Shown here in pieces: positions 24,729 to 64,000 of a stretch of DNA of 64,000 nt. The first letter of the stretch is position 1. The number at the start of each line of letters is the position of its first letter. Source of the stretch: Planctomycetota bacterium. GTDB taxonomy: Bacteria > Planctomycetota > J058. A program made the position numbers and the translations under genes. Location of the stretch: positions 5,647-69,646 of the forward strand of contig JAESQQ010000719.1 in assembly GCA_016765095.1 (NCBI GenBank), given 5' to 3'. The notes beneath the pieces were generated by a model. That model was given only the letters and a program-made list of their open reading frames with translations. It did no database searches and was not told the origin of the DNA.

Positions 24729-25100
24729 ATGGAATCGGCCCGCATTCTGGTGATTGACGACGACCCATTCGTCCGTGAATTGATCGCCGAAATGCTCTCG
24801 GCTGGACTCCACGAGGTTCGCGTCGCATCCAGCGAAGAGGAAGGGCTCCGGCTCTTCGAAGAGCAACGACCGGACTTGATACTCCTCGACGTTGACCTGG
24901 GTCGGGGCCGAAGTGGGTTCGACGTGTGCAGGAACCTCATGGCGCGGCCCGATCCTCCCCCGGTGATCTTCCTCACGAGCCATGCTGAGGCCGATTACGT
25001 CCGGGAAGGAACCGAAGCGGGCGCTCAGGGCTACCTCACTAAGCCCTTTAGCCCCTTGGAGTTGATCGAGAAGATCCAAGCAGTCCGAAGCGGACCTTGA
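24729..25100 (+). CDS. CheY-like single-domain response regulator
   Basis: ILVIDDDPFV, LILLDVDLG, IFLTSH and YLTKPF provide all the conserved REC residues. Confidence 0.85.
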   Translation: MESARILVIDDDPFVRELIAEMLSAGLHEVRVASSEEEGLRLFEEQRPDLILLDVDLGRGRSGFDVCRNLMARPDPPPVIFLTSHAEADYVREGTEAGAQGYLTKPFSPLELIEKIQAVRSGP

Positions 25101-26728
25101 GCGACTGGGCGCGGGAGCAGGCAATCCGGTTCGCGGGCGACCTGGGCCGTGTCTATGCTGAAGCCGAGGAGGACCGCCGACGGGTCGGGGCGATCGCAGA
25201 GATCAGCCTAGATCTGGCTCGATCGGTCTCGCTCGAGGCAGCCGCCTTGCGACTCTGCGGAGCCGGGGTCGGAATCTTGGGGTTGTCCTGCGCTGCGGTC
25301 TATCTCCGCCGGAAGGAGAAAACAGTCCGACAGGCGTGCCACCCGAAGAGTGGAGGCCCACAGCTGGGCCCCAAGGCGAGTGACCTCGAGTCTCTTAGCG
25401 GTCGGGTAGCCGAGTTCGACTCCACTCCCTGGACGAGCCTGTTCCCAGAGGGGGACCCGGTCACCGTGATTCCCCTTGTCGGGCGCGGAGGCTCGATCGG
25501 CTTCTTGGTCGGCGCAGGACGCATTTCGCAGCTCGAGGGCCCGAGCAAGGGGAGTTACCAGGATCTCCTCACTCTCCTGGCCGGACACGCTGGCGTGATC
25601 TTCGAGAACTTCCTCTTTGAAGAGCGTCGTGGGGCCTCACTCCGGCCCAAGTCAACACGGCGCAGCGCGGAAACGGCTCGCGCACCGCTGGCCCTTTTGG
25701 GCACCAGTCCCGCGATGCAAGAGATCCTGGGCATGATCGACCGCCTCGCCAAGGTTGACTCCTCGGTTCTGTTGGGCGGAGAGACTGGCACCGGGAAGTC
25801 ACTCGTGGCCCGGGCCATACATGACGCTAGCCCCCGAGCGGACAGGCCATTCATAGCGCTCAACTGCGCTGCCATCCCCGACGCGCTCGTGGAGTCGGAG
25901 CTCTTCGGTCACGAGGCCGGGGCATTCACGGGTGCCCAGCGCCAGCACCGCGGGAAGGTGGAACAGGCCGAGGGTGGAACGCTCTTTCTGGACGAGGTCG
26001 GTGAGCTCTCGCTAGGGGCCCAGAGCAAGCTGCTCACCTTCCTCGAAGAGCATCGCTTTGCCCGAGTGGGAGGTAGCAAGGAACTCCAAGTCGACGTGCG
26101 CGTTCTCTCGGCGACCAACGCAGACCTCGAGGCAGCGGTCCAGGAGAGCGCTTTCCGCAACGACCTCCTCTACCGACTCAACGTGTTTGTCCTCGAGTTG
26201 CCCCCGCTCCGGGCCCGTGGCGCAGACATAACGACGCTCGCGCAGCACTTTGCCCAGGAAGTCGCCGAGCGCTATTCGTTGCCCCTGCCGGCGTTCGGTT
26301 CTCAGGCCCAAGCGAGGCTTCTGGCCTATCACTGGCCGGGCAACGTCCGGGAGCTGCGGAACGTCATGGAGCGGGCGATCATCATGGCTGACGGCGGTCC
26401 GATCCCTGCGGAGCTCCTGCCTGCTGGCCAAAACCCGCTCAGCGAGTCGCCGGTCTTGGAGCCAGACACTCCCCCCGTGGCGCAGCCGCCCTCGCTGGAT
26501 CAAGGCGTGGGCTTCGCCGACGCGAAGCGTGAAATGATCCAGCGCTGGGAGATCGCGTATCTGCTGGCCGCGTTGAAAACCACCGGCGGAAACGTCGCCC
26601 ATGCCGCGAGGCTGGCCAAGATCGACAAGAAGAACCTCCAGCGCAAGATCAAAGGTTACGGGATCGACATTCAAGGGATCCGCGCGGGGCGCGCTCGGGG
26701 GGGCCCAGGCACCCCCGCGACTTCGTAA
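25097..26728 (+). CDS. Sigma54-dependent transcriptional activator (bacterial enhancer-binding protein) with a GAF-like N-terminus and no receiver domain
   Basis: AAA+ core with GETGTGKS, GAFTGA and ESELFGHE. C-terminal Fis-type HTH. The TTG start overlaps the REC gene stop (TTGA). Confidence 0.9.
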   Translation: MSDWAREQAIRFAGDLGRVYAEAEEDRRRVGAIAEISLDLARSVSLEAAALRLCGAGVGILGLSCAAVYLRRKEKTVRQACHPKSGGPQLGPKASDLESLSGRVAEFDSTPWTSLFPEGDPVTVIPLVGRGGSIGFLVGAGRISQLEGPSKGSYQDLLTLLAGHAGVIFENFLFEERRGASLRPKSTRRSAETARAPLALLGTSPAMQEILGMIDRLAKVDSSVLLGGETGTGKSLVARAIHDASPRADRPFIALNCAAIPDALVESELFGHEAGAFTGAQRQHRGKVEQAEGGTLFLDEVGELSLGAQSKLLTFLEEHRFARVGGSKELQVDVRVLSATNADLEAAVQESAFRNDLLYRLNVFVLELPPLRARGADITTLAQHFAQEVAERYSLPLPAFGSQAQARLLAYHWPGNVRELRNVMERAIIMADGGPIPAELLPAGQNPLSESPVLEPDTPPVAQPPSLDQGVGFADAKREMIQRWEIAYLLAALKTTGGNVAHAARLAKIDKKNLQRKIKGYGIDIQGIRAGRARGGPGTPATS

Positions 26729-26755
26729 CCCCTCTCCTAGACTGCACCGCGAGTT

Positions 26756-61825: not shown

Positions 61826-63357
61826 TCGCTCGAGGGCGGAGCGCAGCTCCGATCCAGAATCCTGCGGATCGTGGCGGCGAGCTCGCGGGGCGCGAGCGGC
61901 TTGCGCATGTATCCCGAGAGGCCGAGCTCGGCGAAGTTCTCCGCGCTGACCGTCTCGGAGAACCCCGTGATCAGCAGCACCGGCAGCCCTGGATGCACGG
62001 CGTGGACTTCGTGGGCGAGCTGAGTCCCGGTCAGGTGAGGCATCGTCTGATCGGTGATCAAGAGGTCGAACTGCCCGCCCTCGCGGATCGCGACCAGGGC
62101 CTCGACGCTGTTGGTCTTGGCGGTGACCTCATATCCCTGGAGCTCGAGCAGCTCCTTGCCCATAGCCGCGATCTCTGGGTCGTCGTCGACGAACAAGATC
62201 TCCTCGGAGCCCCGGCGGGCGGCAGCCGGCGGCTCCGCCCTCGTGCCCTCGGAGGTGAGGGCGCAAGGAAGATGAACCGTGAAGGTGCTCCCCACCCCGA
62301 GCTCGCTCTCGGCGCTGATCGCTCCCCCGGCTTCCTCGAAGATCCCCCGGGCCTCTGCCAAGCCCAAGCCCGTCCCCTCACCCTGGGGTTTGGTCGTGAA
62401 GAAGGGATCGAAGGCGTGGTCGAGGACCTCTGGCTCCATCCCGCAGCCGGTGTCAGAGACGACGACCCGCACATAGCGGCCGGCGGACATTTCGGGGTGC
62501 ACACGGACGGCAGCCCCCGTGTCGAAGTCCACGTGGCTGGCCTGCACCTTGAGCACTCCATCCCCACCCTCGAACGCGTGGTAAGCGTTGGTGTAGAGGT
62601 TCAACAGCGACTGGTGAACCTGAGCTGGGTTCACGACGGCGGTCAGGGCGGCCTCGCCCACTTCGCAGCTGATCTCGACGTTGCTCGGGAAGAGGGAGCG
62701 GACCAGCTTGAGGCTCTCCTTGATCACGAGCCTCAGATCGACCTGCTCGTCCCCTGGACTGACCTGGCGACTGAAGGCCAAGATCTGTGCGATCAACTGA
62801 CGGGCCCGCTCGGCTGCGCGCTCGGCGTGATCGACATAGCGCTGCGCCTGGGGGTTGGGAGAGGCCGAGCGAATCAAGTCGAGGTAGCCAAAGATCGGCG
62901 TCAGGATGTTGTTGAACTCGTGCGCCATCCCTCCCGCGAGCACGCCGAGGGATTCGAACCGCTGAGACTGGCGAAGACTCTTGCGCAGCTCTTCGTACTG
63001 GGTCAGGTCCTCGTGCGTCGAGGCGTAGTGGGAGATCTCTCCCGTCTCGGGGTGGCGAATCGGCGTGATCGTCGCCTTGACCGAGTAGATCGAGCCGTCC
63101 TTGCGCTTGTTGTCAAAGCGCCCAACCCACTCCTGGCCGCCGCGAATCGTCTCCCACAGGTTCTCGTGAAAGCTCTCCGACTGCCGATCGGACCTGACCA
63201 ACTCCACGCTCTGCCCAGTCAACTCGTCAGGCGTGTAGCCCGAGAGTCCACAGAAGTGGGGATTGACGTAGAGGACGATCCCCTCGAGGTCGGTCCACAC
63301 CATCCCGACGGGAGATTGCTCCAAGACGCTCGTCAAGAGATAGTCGGGAAAAGTCAC
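61822..63357 (-). CDS. Hybrid histidine kinase: PAS, HisKA, HATPase, REC
   Basis: H-box MAHEFNNILTPI. DTGCGM and GEGTGLGLA. C-terminal REC ILFVDDDPEI...LLITDQTMPHLTG. The start is uncertain (GTG at 63357 or ATG at 63303). The track start at 63420 would abut the divergent gene and was rejected. Confidence 0.75.
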   Translation of the reverse strand: MTFPDYLLTSVLEQSPVGMVWTDLEGIVLYVNPHFCGLSGYTPDELTGQSVELVRSDRQSESFHENLWETIRGGQEWVGRFDNKRKDGSIYSVKATITPIRHPETGEISHYASTHEDLTQYEELRKSLRQSQRFESLGVLAGGMAHEFNNILTPIFGYLDLIRSASPNPQAQRYVDHAERAAERARQLIAQILAFSRQVSPGDEQVDLRLVIKESLKLVRSLFPSNVEISCEVGEAALTAVVNPAQVHQSLLNLYTNAYHAFEGGDGVLKVQASHVDFDTGAAVRVHPEMSAGRYVRVVVSDTGCGMEPEVLDHAFDPFFTTKPQGEGTGLGLAEARGIFEEAGGAISAESELGVGSTFTVHLPCALTSEGTRAEPPAAARRGSEEILFVDDDPEIAAMGKELLELQGYEVTAKTNSVEALVAIREGGQFDLLITDQTMPHLTGTQLAHEVHAVHPGLPVLLITGFSETVSAENFAELGLSGYMRKPLAPRELAATIRRILDRSCAPPSSD

Positions 63358-63420
63358 CTGGCAAATGGTAACAACCACCCAGAGCCCAAACGACCCCCTA
63401 CGGAAAGGAGTGCACCTCAA

Positions 63421-64000
63421 TGACCAGCCTCGTCGCTCTGGTGGAGGACGACCCAGACACAGAGGAGCGGGTCTGCGACCTCCTCCGCGCGCGCGGCTAC
63501 AGAGTGGAGGCCTATCGAAAGTTCGACCAGGCCTTCGAGTCTTTGGCCGACTCGCCCCCCGACCTCCTCGTGACTGAGATCGACCTCCCCGGCGGGAGCG
63601 GCTTGGAGTTCATAGCGCGCCTGCGCTCCTTCCACTCCCAGGACTCGTTCGCTACGCTTGTTTTGTCCCGCCTGGACACTGAGTCGGACATTCTGCGGGC
63701 CTATGCCGCCGGAGCAGACGACTTTCTGAGCAAGCCCTTCGCCGACGACGAGTTCCTCGCCAAGTGCACGGTCCTCCTGACGCGCCCGCGCCCGCGCGCC
63801 GAGGCCGCCCCGCCCCTCTCCTCAGGAGAGGAGGGGCTCCTCTTCGGGCGCTACCTCCAGCTGGGCACCCTCGGCAAAGGCGCCTACGGGACCGTCTACC
63901 GGGCGAAGGACATGAAGAGCGGTCGGGTCGTCGCGCTCAAGATTCTCGAGGAGGAGAAAGGCCGCCAGGAGGAGAACCGCTACCGCTTCTTGCGCGAGAC
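63421..64000 (+). CDS. Hybrid response regulator / Ser-Thr protein kinase (partial; runs off the window end)
   Basis: RBS AAAGGAG lies 9 nt upstream of ATG 63421. REC with LVEDDPDT, LLVTEIDLPGGSG and FLSKPF. Kinase Gly-loop LGKGAYGTVY, VALKIL and ...YRFLRET. Absent from the ORF track because it has no stop in the window. Confidence 0.85.

What the first reader, a model, noticed from the sequence alone, without database searches (positions are those of the whole stretch)
24729..64000. Signalling island with five receiver/Ser-Thr-kinase fusion genes interleaved with phosphorelay-type hybrid histidine kinases
Over about 39 kb there are five genes that fuse a CheY-like receiver (or pseudo-receiver) to a Hanks-type Ser/Thr kinase (27681, 29115, 57775, 59016, 63421). 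The same stretch holds a kinase-dead paralogue with two FHA domains, three stand-alone CheY-like receivers, six hybrid HKs (two with HPt domains and up to four receivers each), a split NtrC-type activator and a lone CheR. Receiver-kinase fusions wired next to HPt-containing phosphorelay kinases suggest a network in which His-Asp phosphotransfer gates Ser/Thr phosphorylation, with FHA read-out. One such fusion is not remarkable, but five paralogous copies in two translationally coupled clusters flanking phosphorelay kinases make a coherent candidate system.
Basis: partly seen in the sequence, partly recalled or inferred. Interest (0 to 1): 0.8.

Follow-up and report, generated by a model that had tools for sequence, protein, structure and literature searches.

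The report
Receiver-fused Ser/Thr kinase signalling cluster
An uncultured planctomycete carries a real, dense cluster of signalling genes in which five Ser/Thr kinases are fused to two-component receiver domains (only two look phosphorylatable), built from small gene cassettes conserved in related genomes, which makes a testable but unproven case that histidine-kinase signalling switches on Ser/Thr kinases.

Summary
Pfam confirms five receiver (REC)+Hanks-kinase fusions (RK1-RK5), a kinase-dead kinase-FHA protein, three stand-alone receivers, six hybrid histidine kinases (two with HPt), a REC plus REC-less sigma54 activator pair, and a lone CheR.

Corrections:
- Only RK1 and RK4 have a complete phospho-acceptor pocket. 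RK2 lacks the acidic pair and Lys, RK3 has Gly and RK5 has Glu at the acceptor Asp.
- The second "FHA" is a degenerate FHA-like domain.
- A 9.4-kb non-signalling block splits the region.

The source is a Planctomycetota metagenome-assembled genome. The five kinases are old paralogues (37-45% identity), not in-situ duplicates.

The 39-kb island is not conserved as a whole, but cassettes inside it are:
- RK1-type + degenerate-REC RK2-type tandem.
- RK3-RK4-pseudokinase/FHA triad. In two other genomes it sits with a GAF-type sigma54 activator, a trypsin-like lipoprotein and an orthologue of the PAS-HK-REC kinase HHK-F.

Histidine kinases lie within 10 kb of 6/11 related RK loci, against 2/51 generic Hanks-kinase loci.

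Best reading (about 0.5): His-Asp phosphotransfer to RK1/RK4 drives receiver-mediated kinase activation, read out by the FHA pseudokinase. The conserved partner kinases are the simple hybrid type, not the HPt-bearing ones. I found no functional description of such fusions. I rate it a new variant of a known kind, of moderate interest.

The parts
24729..25100 (+). Stand-alone receiver (CheY-like), canonical DD/D/T/K, translationally coupled (TTGA) to the sigma54 activator
   Evidence: Pfam Response_reg 3.3e-29; key residues; junction
25097..26728 (+). REC-less sigma54 enhancer-binding protein: GAF-like N-terminus, AAA+ with GETGTGKS and GAFTGA, HTH_8
   Evidence: Pfam; motifs. It belongs to the same subfamily, N-terminal domain included, as the EBPs next to RKs in L005, L091, L093 and L096
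26756..26770 (+). Sigma54-like -24/-12 element (cGGCAC-N5-cTGC), 26 nt upstream of the unknown gene that heads unk-RK1-RK2. Weak lead only
26797..27666 (+). Unknown 289-aa protein: marginal GAF-like N-terminus and a Ser/Thr/Pro-rich tail. Lies between the EBP and RK1
   Evidence: Gene call; Pfam GAF_2 E=0.035 only; no NCBIfam hit; no homologue in the other RK loci
27681..29111 (+). RK1: about 75-aa disordered N-terminus + canonical REC (ED.D.S.K) + intact Hanks kinase
   Evidence: Pfam; residues; orthologue in L089 at 56%
29115..30308 (+). RK2: degenerate receiver (no acidic pair, Lys->Arg; Asp kept) + intact Hanks kinase
   Evidence: Pfam; residues; falls in a clade of degenerate-REC kinases
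30286..33813 (-). HHK-A: HPt-REC-REC-PAS-HisKA-HATPase-REC-REC-HPt. Converges on RK2 with a 23-nt overlap
   Evidence: Pfam; REC map; H-box and HPt His; 56% identical to HHK-E
33806..34186 (-). Stand-alone receiver inside the minus-strand HHK operon
   Evidence: Pfam 2.4e-26; residues
34183..36996 (-). HHK-B: MASE3 membrane sensor-PAS-HisKA-HATPase-REC-REC (last REC truncated)
   Evidence: Pfam
37030..39546 (-). HHK-C: REC-PAS-GAF-HisKA(AHDFNN)-HATPase-REC, CckA-like transmitter
   Evidence: Pfam; H-box; the type most similar to RK-adjacent HKs in other loci
39770..44071 (+). HHK-D: 4HB_MCP/CHASE3-like sensor-GAF-PAS-HisKA-HATPase-REC-REC-REC
   Evidence: Pfam
44068..44892 (+). Lone CheR methyltransferase, overlapping HHK-D (ATGA) and HHK-E
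   Evidence: Pfam CheR 1.4e-36, CheR_N
44889..47660 (+). HHK-E: REC-PAS-HisKA-HATPase-REC-REC-HPt (HALKG)
   Evidence: Pfam
47677..48414 (-). Trypsin-like lipoprotein (lipobox LSGC), paralogue 1, with a sigma54-like element at 48438-48452
   Evidence: Pfam Trypsin_2; homologues sit beside EBPs in L005, L091 and L096; promoter-like site
56090..56803 (-). Trypsin-like lipoprotein, paralogue 2 (70% identical to paralogue 1), with a sigma54-like element at 56833-56847
57025..57387 (-). Stand-alone receiver, divergent from RK3
   Evidence: Gene call with Response_reg; residues DD/D/T/K
57775..59019 (+). RK3: Asp-less receiver (EV.G.S.K) + intact Hanks kinase. Orthologues in L005 and L096 keep the Asp
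   Evidence: Pfam
59019..60242 (+). RK4: canonical OmpR/PhoB-like REC + intact Hanks kinase
   Evidence: Pfam; AF2 pLDDT 90.8; orthologues at 58-63%
60239..61825 (+). Pseudokinase-FHA-(degenerate FHA) partner (KFHA)
   Evidence: Pfam; conserved loss of catalytic residues and intact FHA1 pThr pocket in 8 orthologues; hhalign; AF2
61822..63303 (-). HHK-F: PAS-HisKA(AHEFNN)-HATPase-REC, convergent with KFHA (4-nt overlap). Start called at 63303 or 63378
   Evidence: Pfam; gene calls; orthologues beside the triad in L005 (51%) and L096 (56%)
63420..64000 (+). RK5 (truncated by the window end; 439 aa on the contig): receiver with Glu at the acceptor position + Hanks kinase
   Evidence: Pfam; full length from L003; residues

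Best explanation
The region is a genuine signalling neighbourhood of an uncultured Planctomycetota genome. It is assembled from several conserved cassettes rather than being one indivisible system.

Its distinctive parts are response-regulator-like Hanks kinases (RKs): an OmpR/PhoB-type receiver joined by a short linker to a PknB-like kinase domain.

Proposed mechanism, with status marked:
1. Inferred: a cognate histidine kinase phosphorylates the receiver Asp of RK1 and RK4. The most likely donors are the conserved PAS-HK-REC type (HHK-F/HHK-C), acting directly or via an HPt such as those of HHK-A/E.
2. Inferred from the known behaviour of OmpR/PhoB receivers and PknB-type kinases: phospho-Asp promotes receiver dimerisation through alpha4-beta5-alpha5. 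This brings the kinase domains together for trans-autophosphorylation of the conserved activation-loop Thr. The translationally coupled partners with degenerate receivers (RK2; RK3 in this genome) act as heterodimer partners or substrates that cannot themselves be switched by His-Asp transfer.
3. Inferred: the canonical FHA domain of the conserved pseudokinase (KFHA) docks on the resulting pThr and scaffolds or allosterically tunes the complex.
4. Speculative: the output reaches the co-localised GAF-type sigma54 activator, and through it genes such as the trypsin-like lipoproteins.

Shown here: domain content, motif integrity or loss, operon geometry, paralogy and orthology, and conserved synteny.

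Not shown: any phosphotransfer, interaction or target.
For: Domains and motifs:
- RK1 and RK4 keep all five receiver active-site residues.
- 105 of 118 family members with a detectable REC keep the acceptor Asp.
- The RK4 receiver is closest to the KdpE/MtrA/PhoP/PhoB receivers.
- The alpha5 helix (E111 L112 L113 A114) and an activation-loop Thr (T301) are near-invariant across 67 family members.
- Degenerate-REC members keep the alpha4-beta5-alpha5 scaffold while losing the catalytic residues.

Conserved cassettes:
- RK1-type then RK2-type tandem, also in L089.
- RK3-RK4-KFHA with the same overlapping junction coordinates in L005 (gene calls). In L096 the same gene order was found by six-frame ORF matching.
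- RK4-KFHA in L007.
- The eight KFHA clusters share contig lengths with RK4 orthologues where contigs are long enough.
- KFHA pseudokinase substitutions and the FHA1 residues R315, S329, R330, H332 and N351 are invariant in 8 orthologues.

Links to His-Asp and sigma54 components:
- HHK-F orthologue, EBP and trypsin-like lipoprotein flank the triad in L005 and L096.
- RK-REC-EBP in L093, RK-REC in L094, and an RK pair with HKs, a CheA-CheB pair and an EBP in L091.
- An HK lies within 10 kb in 6/11 RK loci against 2/51 control kinase loci.
Against: - Three of the five local receivers are not ordinary acceptors.
- Several related RK modules have no HK within 10 kb (L007, L008, L089, L095).
- One degenerate-REC kinase stands alone, so pairing is not obligatory.
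- HPt-bearing kinases are not conserved neighbours.
- The AF2 linker (residues 121-140) has low confidence, so no interdomain mechanism can be read from the model.
- The HK-enrichment control uses kinase loci from other phyla, and the RK loci were picked for long contigs.
- The sigma54-like sites have two mismatches each in GC-rich DNA and are absent or weaker in relatives.
Confidence: 0.5

Rival explanations
1. Loose neighbourhood of independent modules. The RK cassettes, the two hybrid-HK operons (HHK-C/B/REC/A and HHK-D/CheR/E) and the REC-EBP pair each belong to separate pathways. They lie together only because signalling genes accumulate in such genomes. The HPt phosphorelays feed the stand-alone receivers or distant regulators, not the RKs.
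For: - The 39-kb arrangement is not conserved. In GCA_050250455.1 RKs sit on three contigs.
- The HHK-A/E type is absent from the other RK loci.
- RK modules occur without any HK in L007, L008, L089 and L095.
- A 9.4-kb metabolic/peptidase block separates the two kinase clusters.
Against: - HHK-F, the EBP and the trypsin-like lipoprotein are syntenic with the RK3-RK4-KFHA triad in three genomes whose proteins are only 50-73% identical.
- RK-REC-EBP recurs.
- HKs are enriched near RKs.
- 105/118 family receivers keep a complete acceptor site, which implies that some HK serves them.
Confidence: 0.27
2. Phosphorylation-independent receivers. In these kinases the REC domain is mainly a dimerisation or ligand-binding module, as in Asp-less receivers or the c-di-GMP-binding pseudo-receiver of ShkA. 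Kinase output is then set by expression level, partner pairing or a small molecule rather than by His-Asp transfer.
For: - RK2, RK3 and RK5 have lost acceptor chemistry.
- Asp->Glu, Gly, Ser, His or Gln replacements arose repeatedly in the family, and a whole clade has degenerate receivers with a preserved fold.
- Asp-less receivers are a recognised class (PMC4395418).
- A pseudo-receiver that binds c-di-GMP to activate a kinase is documented (PMC7010744, abstract seen).
Against: - RK1, RK4 and about 89% of family members keep all acceptor residues under evident constraint.
- The RK3 loss is lineage-specific, since its orthologues keep the Asp.
Confidence: 0.13
3. Reverse wiring. The Hanks domains phosphorylate two-component proteins (receivers, HKs, the EBP) on Ser/Thr, as known for PknB-type kinases acting on response regulators. 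The fused receiver then only tethers the kinase to its two-component substrates.
For: Ser/Thr phosphorylation of response regulators by Hanks kinases is established in Gram-positive bacteria (review PMC4601284, abstract seen). The RKs are surrounded by 23 receiver domains.
Against: No evidence here distinguishes this reading. It is compatible with, rather than exclusive of, His-Asp gating. The conserved complete acceptor pockets argue that the fused receiver is itself a phospho-acceptor.
Confidence: 0.08
4. Anti-phage or conflict system built on Ser/Thr kinases (PD-T4-6, mad6 or PglW-like).
For: PADLOC PD-T4-6 and mad6 models hit the kinase domains, and NCBIfam MADS6 and PglW give sub-threshold hits.
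Against: - The hits cover only the generic kinase domain.
- NCBIfam scores are far below the cut-offs (105-141 bits against 460 for MADS6; 41-97 bits against 990 for PglW).
- No other defence component was found in the neighbouring proteins tested.
- The context is two-component and sigma54 regulatory genes.
Confidence: 0.02

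Closest known systems
Response regulators with enzymatic output domains (for example CheB, PleD/WspR-type REC-GGDEF, RsbU-type REC-PP2C)
   Same: An N-terminal CheY-like receiver with the full acceptor pocket (RK1, RK4) is followed by a catalytic output domain, and the genes lie among histidine kinases.
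   Different: The output is a Hanks-type Ser/Thr kinase. I found no functional or structural description of this architecture in the searchable literature or the PDB. From memory only, not verified here: the architecture is listed in domain databases and response-regulator censuses.
PknB/PknA/PknE/StkP-type bacterial Hanks kinases
   Same: These are the best sequence and fold matches to the kinase domain. The RKs share the bacterial alphaC 'RF' motif and the activation-loop Thr, so dimerisation-driven trans-autophosphorylation is a plausible shared mechanism.
   Different: There is no transmembrane segment and no PASTA or other extracellular sensor. The input is a cytoplasmic receiver domain. 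No NCBIfam family reaches its cut-off.
Yeast Sln1-Ypd1-Ssk1 -> Ssk2/22 (HOG) and plant ETR1-CTR1
   Same: Works alike: a His-Asp phosphorelay receiver controls a Ser/Thr kinase. The Maeda et al. 1994 paper is cited in the reference list of PMC1262709.
   Different: In those systems the receiver acts in trans on a MAPKKK or Raf-like kinase. Here the receiver and kinase form one polypeptide in a bacterium. The resemblance is an analogy, not homology of the pathway.
Cyanobacterial HstK (Hanks kinase domain + histidine kinase domain in one protein)
   Same: A bacterial fusion that joins the two phosphorylation chemistries (Phalip et al. 2001, cited in the reference list of PMC1262709).
   Different: HstK fuses a Ser/Thr kinase to a histidine-kinase transmitter. 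The RKs fuse a receiver to a Ser/Thr kinase, which implies the opposite direction of signal flow.
Hanks kinase / FHA-protein pairs (mycobacterial PknB with GarA, FhaA, FipA) and kinase-pseudokinase scaffolds (MviN pseudokinase; eukaryotic KSR, STRAD)
   Same: KFHA FHA1 keeps the pThr-binding Arg/Ser/His/Asn residues and resembles FhaB/FipA and OdhI at domain level. KFHA is also a conserved pseudokinase encoded next to active kinases.
   Different: - Pseudokinase, FHA and a degenerate FHA are combined in one protein.
- KFHA keeps the VAIK Lys and DxG but loses the HRD Asp, the catalytic-loop Lys and Asn, and the alphaC Glu.
- All seven pseudokinase families of the 2025 bacterial kinome atlas show VAIK-Lys substitution (10.1101/2025.01.12.632604).
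- Only 8 clusters of KFHA were found among 5.8 billion proteins.
Aspartate-less / pseudo-receivers
   Same: RK3 (Gly) and RK5 (Glu) lack the acceptor Asp but keep the Thr/Ser and Lys, as described for ALR domains (PMC4395418). RK2 keeps the fold but not the metal-binding residues.
   Different: They are fused to a kinase and encoded next to a canonical paralogue.
Unorthodox hybrid kinases (ArcB/BarA/TorS type) and the CckA-type phosphorelay
   Same: HHK-A and HHK-E carry H-box His, receiver Asp and HPt His (HALKG). HHK-C and HHK-F have CckA-like AHDFNN/AHEFNN H-boxes plus a C-terminal receiver.
   Different: HHK-A/E carry extra N-terminal receivers and, in HHK-A, a second HPt. No ChpT-like stand-alone HPt was identified.

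Membership tests
Two-component response regulator (phospho-accepting receiver) | CheY-like fold with acidic pair (D12/D13), acceptor Asp (D57), Thr/Ser (T87) and Lys (K109) | tested here: met
   RK1 and RK4 read ED.D.S.K. The three stand-alone RECs and all complete HHK RECs keep D57 and K109, apart from two HHK RECs that lack the T87 Thr/Ser (Leu in HHK-A REC3, Gly in HHK-B REC1) (hmmalign to CheY; Pfam).
Two-component response regulator (phospho-accepting receiver) | The same active-site set in RK2, RK3 and RK5 | tested here: not met
   RK2 reads GK.D.T.R, RK3 reads EV.G.S.K and RK5 reads ED.E.S.K. The fold is still recognised by Pfam.
Two-component response regulator (phospho-accepting receiver) | Phosphotransfer from a cognate histidine kinase or HPt | not testable with these tools
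   The only evidence is synteny and HK enrichment.
Hanks-type (PknB-like) Ser/Thr kinase | G-loop, VAIK Lys, alphaC Glu, HRDxKxxN, DFG, APE | tested here: met
   All motifs are present in RK1-RK5. Pfam Pkinase gives 1e-37 to 1e-43 for RK1-4. Best PDB matches are PknE, StkP, PknB and PknA.
Hanks-type (PknB-like) Ser/Thr kinase | The same catalytic set in the 60239-61825 protein | tested here: not met
   HRD Asp -> Tyr (Y/L/F/R/H in orthologues), catalytic-loop Lys -> Thr, Asn -> Thr/Ser, alphaC Glu -> Gly, G-loop GPSRLG. These changes are conserved in 8 orthologues. It is a pseudokinase.
FHA domain (pThr reader) | Beta-sandwich with conserved Gly-Arg, Ser-x-x-His and Asn that bind pThr | tested here: met
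   FHA1 (residues about 296-384): Pfam 1.2e-17. G314, R315, S329, R330, H332, T350 and N351 are invariant.
FHA domain (pThr reader) | The same features in the C-terminal domain (residues about 436-528) | tested here: not met
   Homologous to FHA1 by hhalign (94%, E 1.2e-7) and predicted all-beta with pLDDT 83-93. However GR -> GS, SRxH -> PRKA and TN -> PD, and Pfam finds nothing. It is a degenerate FHA-like domain.
HK-REC-HPt phosphorelay (unorthodox hybrid kinase) | H-box His, ATPase domain, receiver Asp and HPt His in one protein | tested here: met
   HHK-A and HHK-E: HisKA, HATPase_c, REC and Hpt by Pfam; SHEIRTP H-box and HALKG HPt motif; D57 present.
NtrC-type response regulator (REC-AAA+-HTH) | Receiver fused to a sigma54-interaction domain with GAFTGA and an HTH | tested here: not met
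   AAA+ (GAFTGA, Walker A) and HTH_8 are present, but the N-terminus is GAF-like, not REC. A separate REC gene overlaps its start, and the same REC-then-EBP order is seen in L093. 'Split NtrC' is therefore a possible reading, not a membership.
Chemotaxis-like (Che) pathway | CheA, CheW and MCP together with CheR/CheB | tested here: not met
   Only CheR is present in the window. Complete or partial Che clusters lie next to RKs in L091, L092 and L093.
Kinase-based anti-phage systems (PD-T4-6, MADS, BREX PglW) | Full-length match to system-specific models plus partner genes | tested here: not met
   Only the kinase domain matches. NCBIfam scores are far below the cut-offs. No partner genes were found.

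The most novel reading that the evidence does not exclude
A bacterial counterpart of the eukaryotic 'two-component -> kinase cascade' design. A His-Asp signal switches on a receiver-fused Hanks kinase by receiver-driven dimerisation. This kinase works in an obligate complex with a second receiver-kinase and a dedicated pseudokinase-FHA scaffold (KSR-like). The complex controls a GAF-type sigma54 activator and, through it, secreted trypsin-like lipoproteins. This would be a previously undescribed multi-kinase signalling cassette of one Planctomycetota lineage.
Probability: 0.22. Interest if true: 0.75.

Novelty: new variant of a known kind. Interest (0 to 1): 0.5.

Why it matters
Cross-talk between the two main bacterial phosphorylation systems is mostly known in one direction: Hanks kinases phosphorylating response regulators. 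A receiver that directly gates a Hanks kinase would show the opposite direction, in a single polypeptide.

The conserved RK-RK-pseudokinase/FHA triad offers a compact set of soluble proteins, each of about 400-530 aa. With it one could test:
- how phospho-Asp is converted into pThr signalling;
- what bacterial pseudokinases and degenerate FHA domains do;
- why pseudo-receivers are retained next to canonical ones.

It also gives a first functional handle on the large, unexplored Ser/Thr-kinase repertoires of Planctomycetota.

If the modules are independent, the region is simply a well-annotated example of signalling-gene clustering.

Tried and rejected
- **Genome-contig scan with a family alignment.** It still served as a control set and showed REC-kinase fusions in Actinomycetota, Acidobacteriota and Gammaproteobacteria.
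- **Metagenome-contig scan with the KFHA alignment.** Only one true orthologous locus (L096) was found; the rest were unrelated kinases.
- **The search of protein representatives with RK4 residues 1-200.** It was swamped by multi-receiver hybrid kinases whose summed scores outrank true fusions, so no family size could be read. About 25 of the top 150 are single-stretch REC+N-lobe proteins.
- **Literature.** Ten full-text searches and several targeted reads found no functional study of REC-Hanks kinase fusions. Two Galperin response-regulator reviews were not in the library, so I could not verify whether the architecture is catalogued there.
- **afdb50 fold search.** Unavailable.
- **Idea that degenerate-REC kinases are always paired with a canonical RK.** Rejected. 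P0117 stands alone.
- **Recent in-situ duplication.** Rejected on pairwise identities and the tree.
- **Defence-system reading.** Rejected.
- **Sigma54 promoter scan.** Total matches in the window are fewer than in shuffles (30 against 43.6). Three hits are well placed upstream of start codons (rough post-hoc Poisson p about 0.002), but relatives give weaker or no sites. I keep this only as a lead.
- **AF2 of RK4.** It gave confident domains but a low-confidence linker, so I drew no interdomain mechanism from it.

Full report
**Source and gene map**

The window is uniformly GC-rich (0.62-0.70). It matches scaffold_214 (68.4 kb) of a metagenome assembly whose proteins NCBI labels 'MAG: Planctomycetes/Planctomycetota bacterium'. 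An independent Logan assembly of the same run reproduces the local gene order around both kinase clusters (L002, L004).

I chose ORFs by third-position GC and annotated them with Pfam. The finding region resolves into these units:
- Plus-strand operon: REC(24729)-EBP-unknown-RK1-RK2.
- Minus-strand operon: HHK-C-HHK-B-REC-HHK-A.
- Plus-strand operon: HHK-D-CheR-HHK-E.
- A 9.4-kb block without signalling domains (47677-56989): two trypsin-like lipoproteins, an SDR, esterases, an S51 peptidase and two ATP-grasp enzymes.
- A stand-alone REC (57025-57387, minus strand).
- The operon RK3-RK4-KFHA.
- The convergent HHK-F.
- RK5, which runs past the window end and is 439 aa on the contig.

The 24 kb upstream of the finding contains only one signalling gene (an HD-REC-DUF4388 protein). 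The density of signalling genes is therefore local.

**Checking the observation**

- Kinase catalytic motifs are intact in RK1-RK5.
- The paralogue at 60239-61825 is a true pseudokinase.
- Stop/start overlaps (TGATG, ATGA, TTGA) or a 3-nt gap support translational coupling.
- HHK-A and HHK-E have H-box His, receiver Asp and HPt His.
- The sigma54 activator has Walker A and GAFTGA.

Three refinements matter.

First, I aligned all 23 receivers of the region to CheY. Only RK1 and RK4 among the five kinase-linked receivers have the full D12/D13, D57, T87, K109 set. RK2 lacks the acidic pair and the Lys, RK3 has Gly at the acceptor position, and RK5 has Glu there.

Second, Pfam does not recognise the 'second FHA'. 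It is homologous to the first by profile-profile comparison (94%, E 1.2e-7) and is predicted as a confident beta domain. It has lost the pThr-binding residues.

Third, the 'split NtrC' is a stand-alone REC overlapping a GAF-type, REC-less activator.

**What the kinases are**

RK4 retrieves thousands of homologues. The best 120 clusters are almost all 400-480-aa Response_reg+Pkinase proteins from Planctomycetota MAGs and metagenomes.
- The kinase domain is PknB/PknE/StkP-like.
- The receiver is OmpR/PhoB-like (KdpE, MtrA, PhoP, PhoB).
- No PDB chain covers both domains, and no NCBIfam model reaches its cut-off.
- Receiver-kinase fusions also occur sporadically in Solirubrobacterales, Acidobacteriota and Gammaproteobacteria, so the architecture is not unique to this lineage.
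- Across 67 members, the receiver alpha5 helix (E111 L112 L113 A114 in RK4 numbering), the FxRY motif before the G-loop, and an activation-loop Thr (T301) are nearly invariant.
- AF2 gives confident domains (pLDDT 90.8) but a poorly defined linker and activation loop.

**Duplication history**

RK1-RK5 are 37-45% identical to each other. Each has a closer relative elsewhere:
- RK1: 56% to L089.
- RK2: 43% to the gene downstream of that L089 gene.
- RK3: 54% to L005.
- RK4: 58-63% to several MAGs.

A rough NJ tree agrees, so the five copies are old paralogues and not an in-situ burst.

The tree also shows that RK2 belongs to a clade whose receivers are degenerate throughout, although the alpha4-beta5-alpha5 scaffold is kept. 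RK3's loss of Asp is specific to this genome, because its orthologues in L005, P0013 and L096 read ED.D.S.K. Asp->Glu replacements arose several times. Overall 105 of 118 receivers in the sample keep Asp.

**Synteny**

I read twelve other RK loci from the family and from the KFHA scan. L005 and L006 are counted as one in the 11-locus tallies below. The whole island is not conserved, but cassettes are.

(a) RK1-type followed by an overlapping RK2-type gene recurs in L089 with no two-component gene nearby. A degenerate-REC kinase upstream of a canonical RK recurs in L008. One degenerate-REC kinase (P0117) stands alone, so pairing is common but not obligatory.

(b) RK3-RK4-KFHA recurs with the same overlapping gene-call coordinates in L005/L006, and in the same order in L096. 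RK4-KFHA alone recurs in L007.
- KFHA has only eight clusters in the 5.8-billion-protein database.
- These clusters share contig lengths with RK4 orthologues wherever the contig is long enough.
- In L005 and L096 the triad is followed by a convergent sigma54 activator, a trypsin-like lipoprotein and an orthologue of HHK-F (51% and 56% identity), and is preceded by further HHK-C/F-type kinases.
- L005 and L096 are distinct genomes (RK4-like proteins 73% identical).

(c) Other recurrences:
- The activators beside RKs in the window, L005, L091, L093 and L096 are full-length homologues at 44-51% identity. For the first four the N-terminal GAF-like domains were also compared on their own (31-38% identity over about 100-190 aa).
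- RK-REC-EBP is one operon in L093, and RK-REC in L094.
- CheA-CheB pairs or larger Che clusters adjoin RKs in L091, L092 and L093.
- An FHA protein lies in the L092 cluster.

In this window the activator sits with RK1-RK2 rather than with the triad, which points to rearrangement of the same parts.

As a crude control I used a transmitter-domain HMM built from the six local kinases. It finds an HK within 10 kb in 6/11 RK loci against 2/51 generic Hanks-kinase loci of at least 18 kb (Fisher p = 1.8e-4). Two caveats apply: the controls come from other phyla, and the RK loci were chosen for long contigs.

**Mechanism**

The best-supported reading is that RK1 and RK4 are terminal response regulators whose output is Ser/Thr phosphorylation.

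The steps are inferred from established behaviour of the component families:
1. OmpR/PhoB-type receivers dimerise through alpha4-beta5-alpha5 when phosphorylated.
2. PknB-type kinases are activated by dimerisation and activation-loop trans-autophosphorylation.
3. FHA domains bind pThr.

A phospho-Asp-driven receiver dimer would bring two kinase domains together. Partners with degenerate receivers could heterodimerise but not be switched themselves. The KFHA canonical FHA would then dock on the pThr, with its pseudokinase and degenerate FHA domains acting as scaffold or allosteric modules.

The conserved candidate donors are the simple PAS-HK-REC kinases (HHK-F/C type). The HPt domains of HHK-A/E could relay from such hybrids, but they are not conserved neighbours.

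A link to the sigma54 activator and the trypsin-like lipoproteins rests on synteny and on three sigma54-like elements. These lie 23-29 nt upstream of the start codons of both lipoprotein paralogues and of the unknown gene heading unk-RK1-RK2. The sites have two mismatches each, total matches are below the shuffle expectation, and relatives show weaker or no sites. This step is speculative.

**Rivals**

- The modules may be independent neighbours. The lack of conservation of the island, and RK cassettes without HKs, speak for this. The three-genome synteny of the triad with HHK-F, EBP and lipoprotein speaks against it.
- The receivers may act without phosphorylation, as in Asp-less or ligand-binding pseudo-receivers (PMC4395418; PMC7010744). 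This fits RK2, RK3 and RK5 but not the conserved acceptor sites of most family members.
- The kinases may instead target two-component proteins, which is the known direction of cross-talk (PMC4601284). That is compatible with the main model.
- A defence-system reading rests only on generic kinase-domain hits.

**Novelty and verdict**

Within the searchable literature I found no functional account of receiver-Hanks kinase fusions.
- A 2024 survey of Planctomycetota kinases (PMC11032199) does not mention receiver fusions.
- A 2025 atlas of about 300,000 bacterial kinases (10.1101/2025.01.12.632604) does not mention them either.
- The atlas's seven pseudokinase families all involve VAIK-Lys substitution, unlike KFHA, which keeps that Lys.
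- The architecture itself is certainly present in databases, since sources already annotate these proteins as 'response regulator' or 'protein kinase'.
- Mixing of signalling domains is commonplace.

I therefore rate this a new variant of a known kind. The domains and the general idea of two-component/Ser-Thr cross-talk are known. The conserved RK-RK-pseudokinase/FHA cassette with its activator, lipoprotein and hybrid kinase is not described.

Interest is moderate (0.5).

Noticed in passing
window 47677-56989 (minus strand): A block between the two kinase clusters: two 70%-identical trypsin-like lipoproteins at its ends, an SDR, an unknown 465-aa protein with no Pfam hit, two esterases, an S51 peptidase and two tandem ATP-grasp paralogues. 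An ATP-grasp gene and a homologous trypsin-like lipoprotein also sit next to RKs and an EBP in L091. The block may be an output regulon, possibly for peptide ligation or modification.
   Followed up: partly
window 26756-26770 (+), 48438-48452 (-), 56833-56847 (-): Sigma54-like -24/-12 elements (GG-N10-GC kept, two mismatches each) lie 23-29 nt upstream of the start codons of the unknown gene heading unk-RK1-RK2 and of both trypsin-like lipoprotein genes. Relatives show only three-mismatch sites (L091, L096) or none (L005).
   Followed up: partly
window 30286-33813 (-) and 44889-47660 (+): HHK-A and HHK-E are 56% identical over 954 aa (REC-PAS-HK-REC-REC-HPt). This is a local duplication on opposite strands, and HHK-A has gained an extra N-terminal HPt and REC.
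   Followed up: partly
window 39770-47660 (+): CheR is translationally coupled between HHK-D, whose sensor resembles an MCP four-helix bundle/CHASE3, and HHK-E. There is no CheA, CheW, MCP or CheB in the window. This raises the question of whether CheR methylates a hybrid kinase. CheA-CheB pairs or larger Che clusters adjoin RKs in L091, L092 and L093.
   Followed up: no
window 26797-27666 (+): Unknown 289-aa protein between the EBP and RK1, with a marginal GAF-like N-terminus and a long Ser/Thr/Pro-rich tail. It has no homologue in the other RK loci and could be a kinase substrate.
   Followed up: partly
window 7367-8911 (-) and 8968-10497 (-): An HD_5-REC-DUF4388 protein whose receiver lacks the acceptor Asp (Thr at that position), next to a second HD-domain protein. 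This is a separate pseudo-receiver signalling pair outside the finding.
   Followed up: no
window 30286-30308 and 61822-61825: Convergent genes overlap at their 3' ends: RK2/HHK-A by 23 nt and KFHA/HHK-F by 4 nt. No intrinsic terminator can fit between them.
   Followed up: no
L003 14500-14960 (contig sequence just beyond the window end): A perfect hairpin GGGAGCTGTCGC-TCAA-GCGACAGCTCCC lies directly after the RK5 stop codon. About 350 nt further on there is a tandem duplicated 24-mer, GGCCTCCCTTGGGTGTAAGCTCAG x2, upstream of a gene for a membrane protein.
   Followed up: no
window 12391-14232 (-): A fusion of a homocysteine S-methyltransferase domain with an MTHFR domain in one 613-aa protein. 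It is unrelated to the finding.
   Followed up: no
L092 7022-7594 (-) and neighbours: In another Planctomycetota MAG (GCA_023954375.1) an RK is divergent from a PAS-HK. It lies next to a small FHA protein embedded in an MCP-CheW-CheA-CheB-CheR(TPR) cluster. This is a second, different way in which FHA and Che components associate with this kinase family.
   Followed up: no
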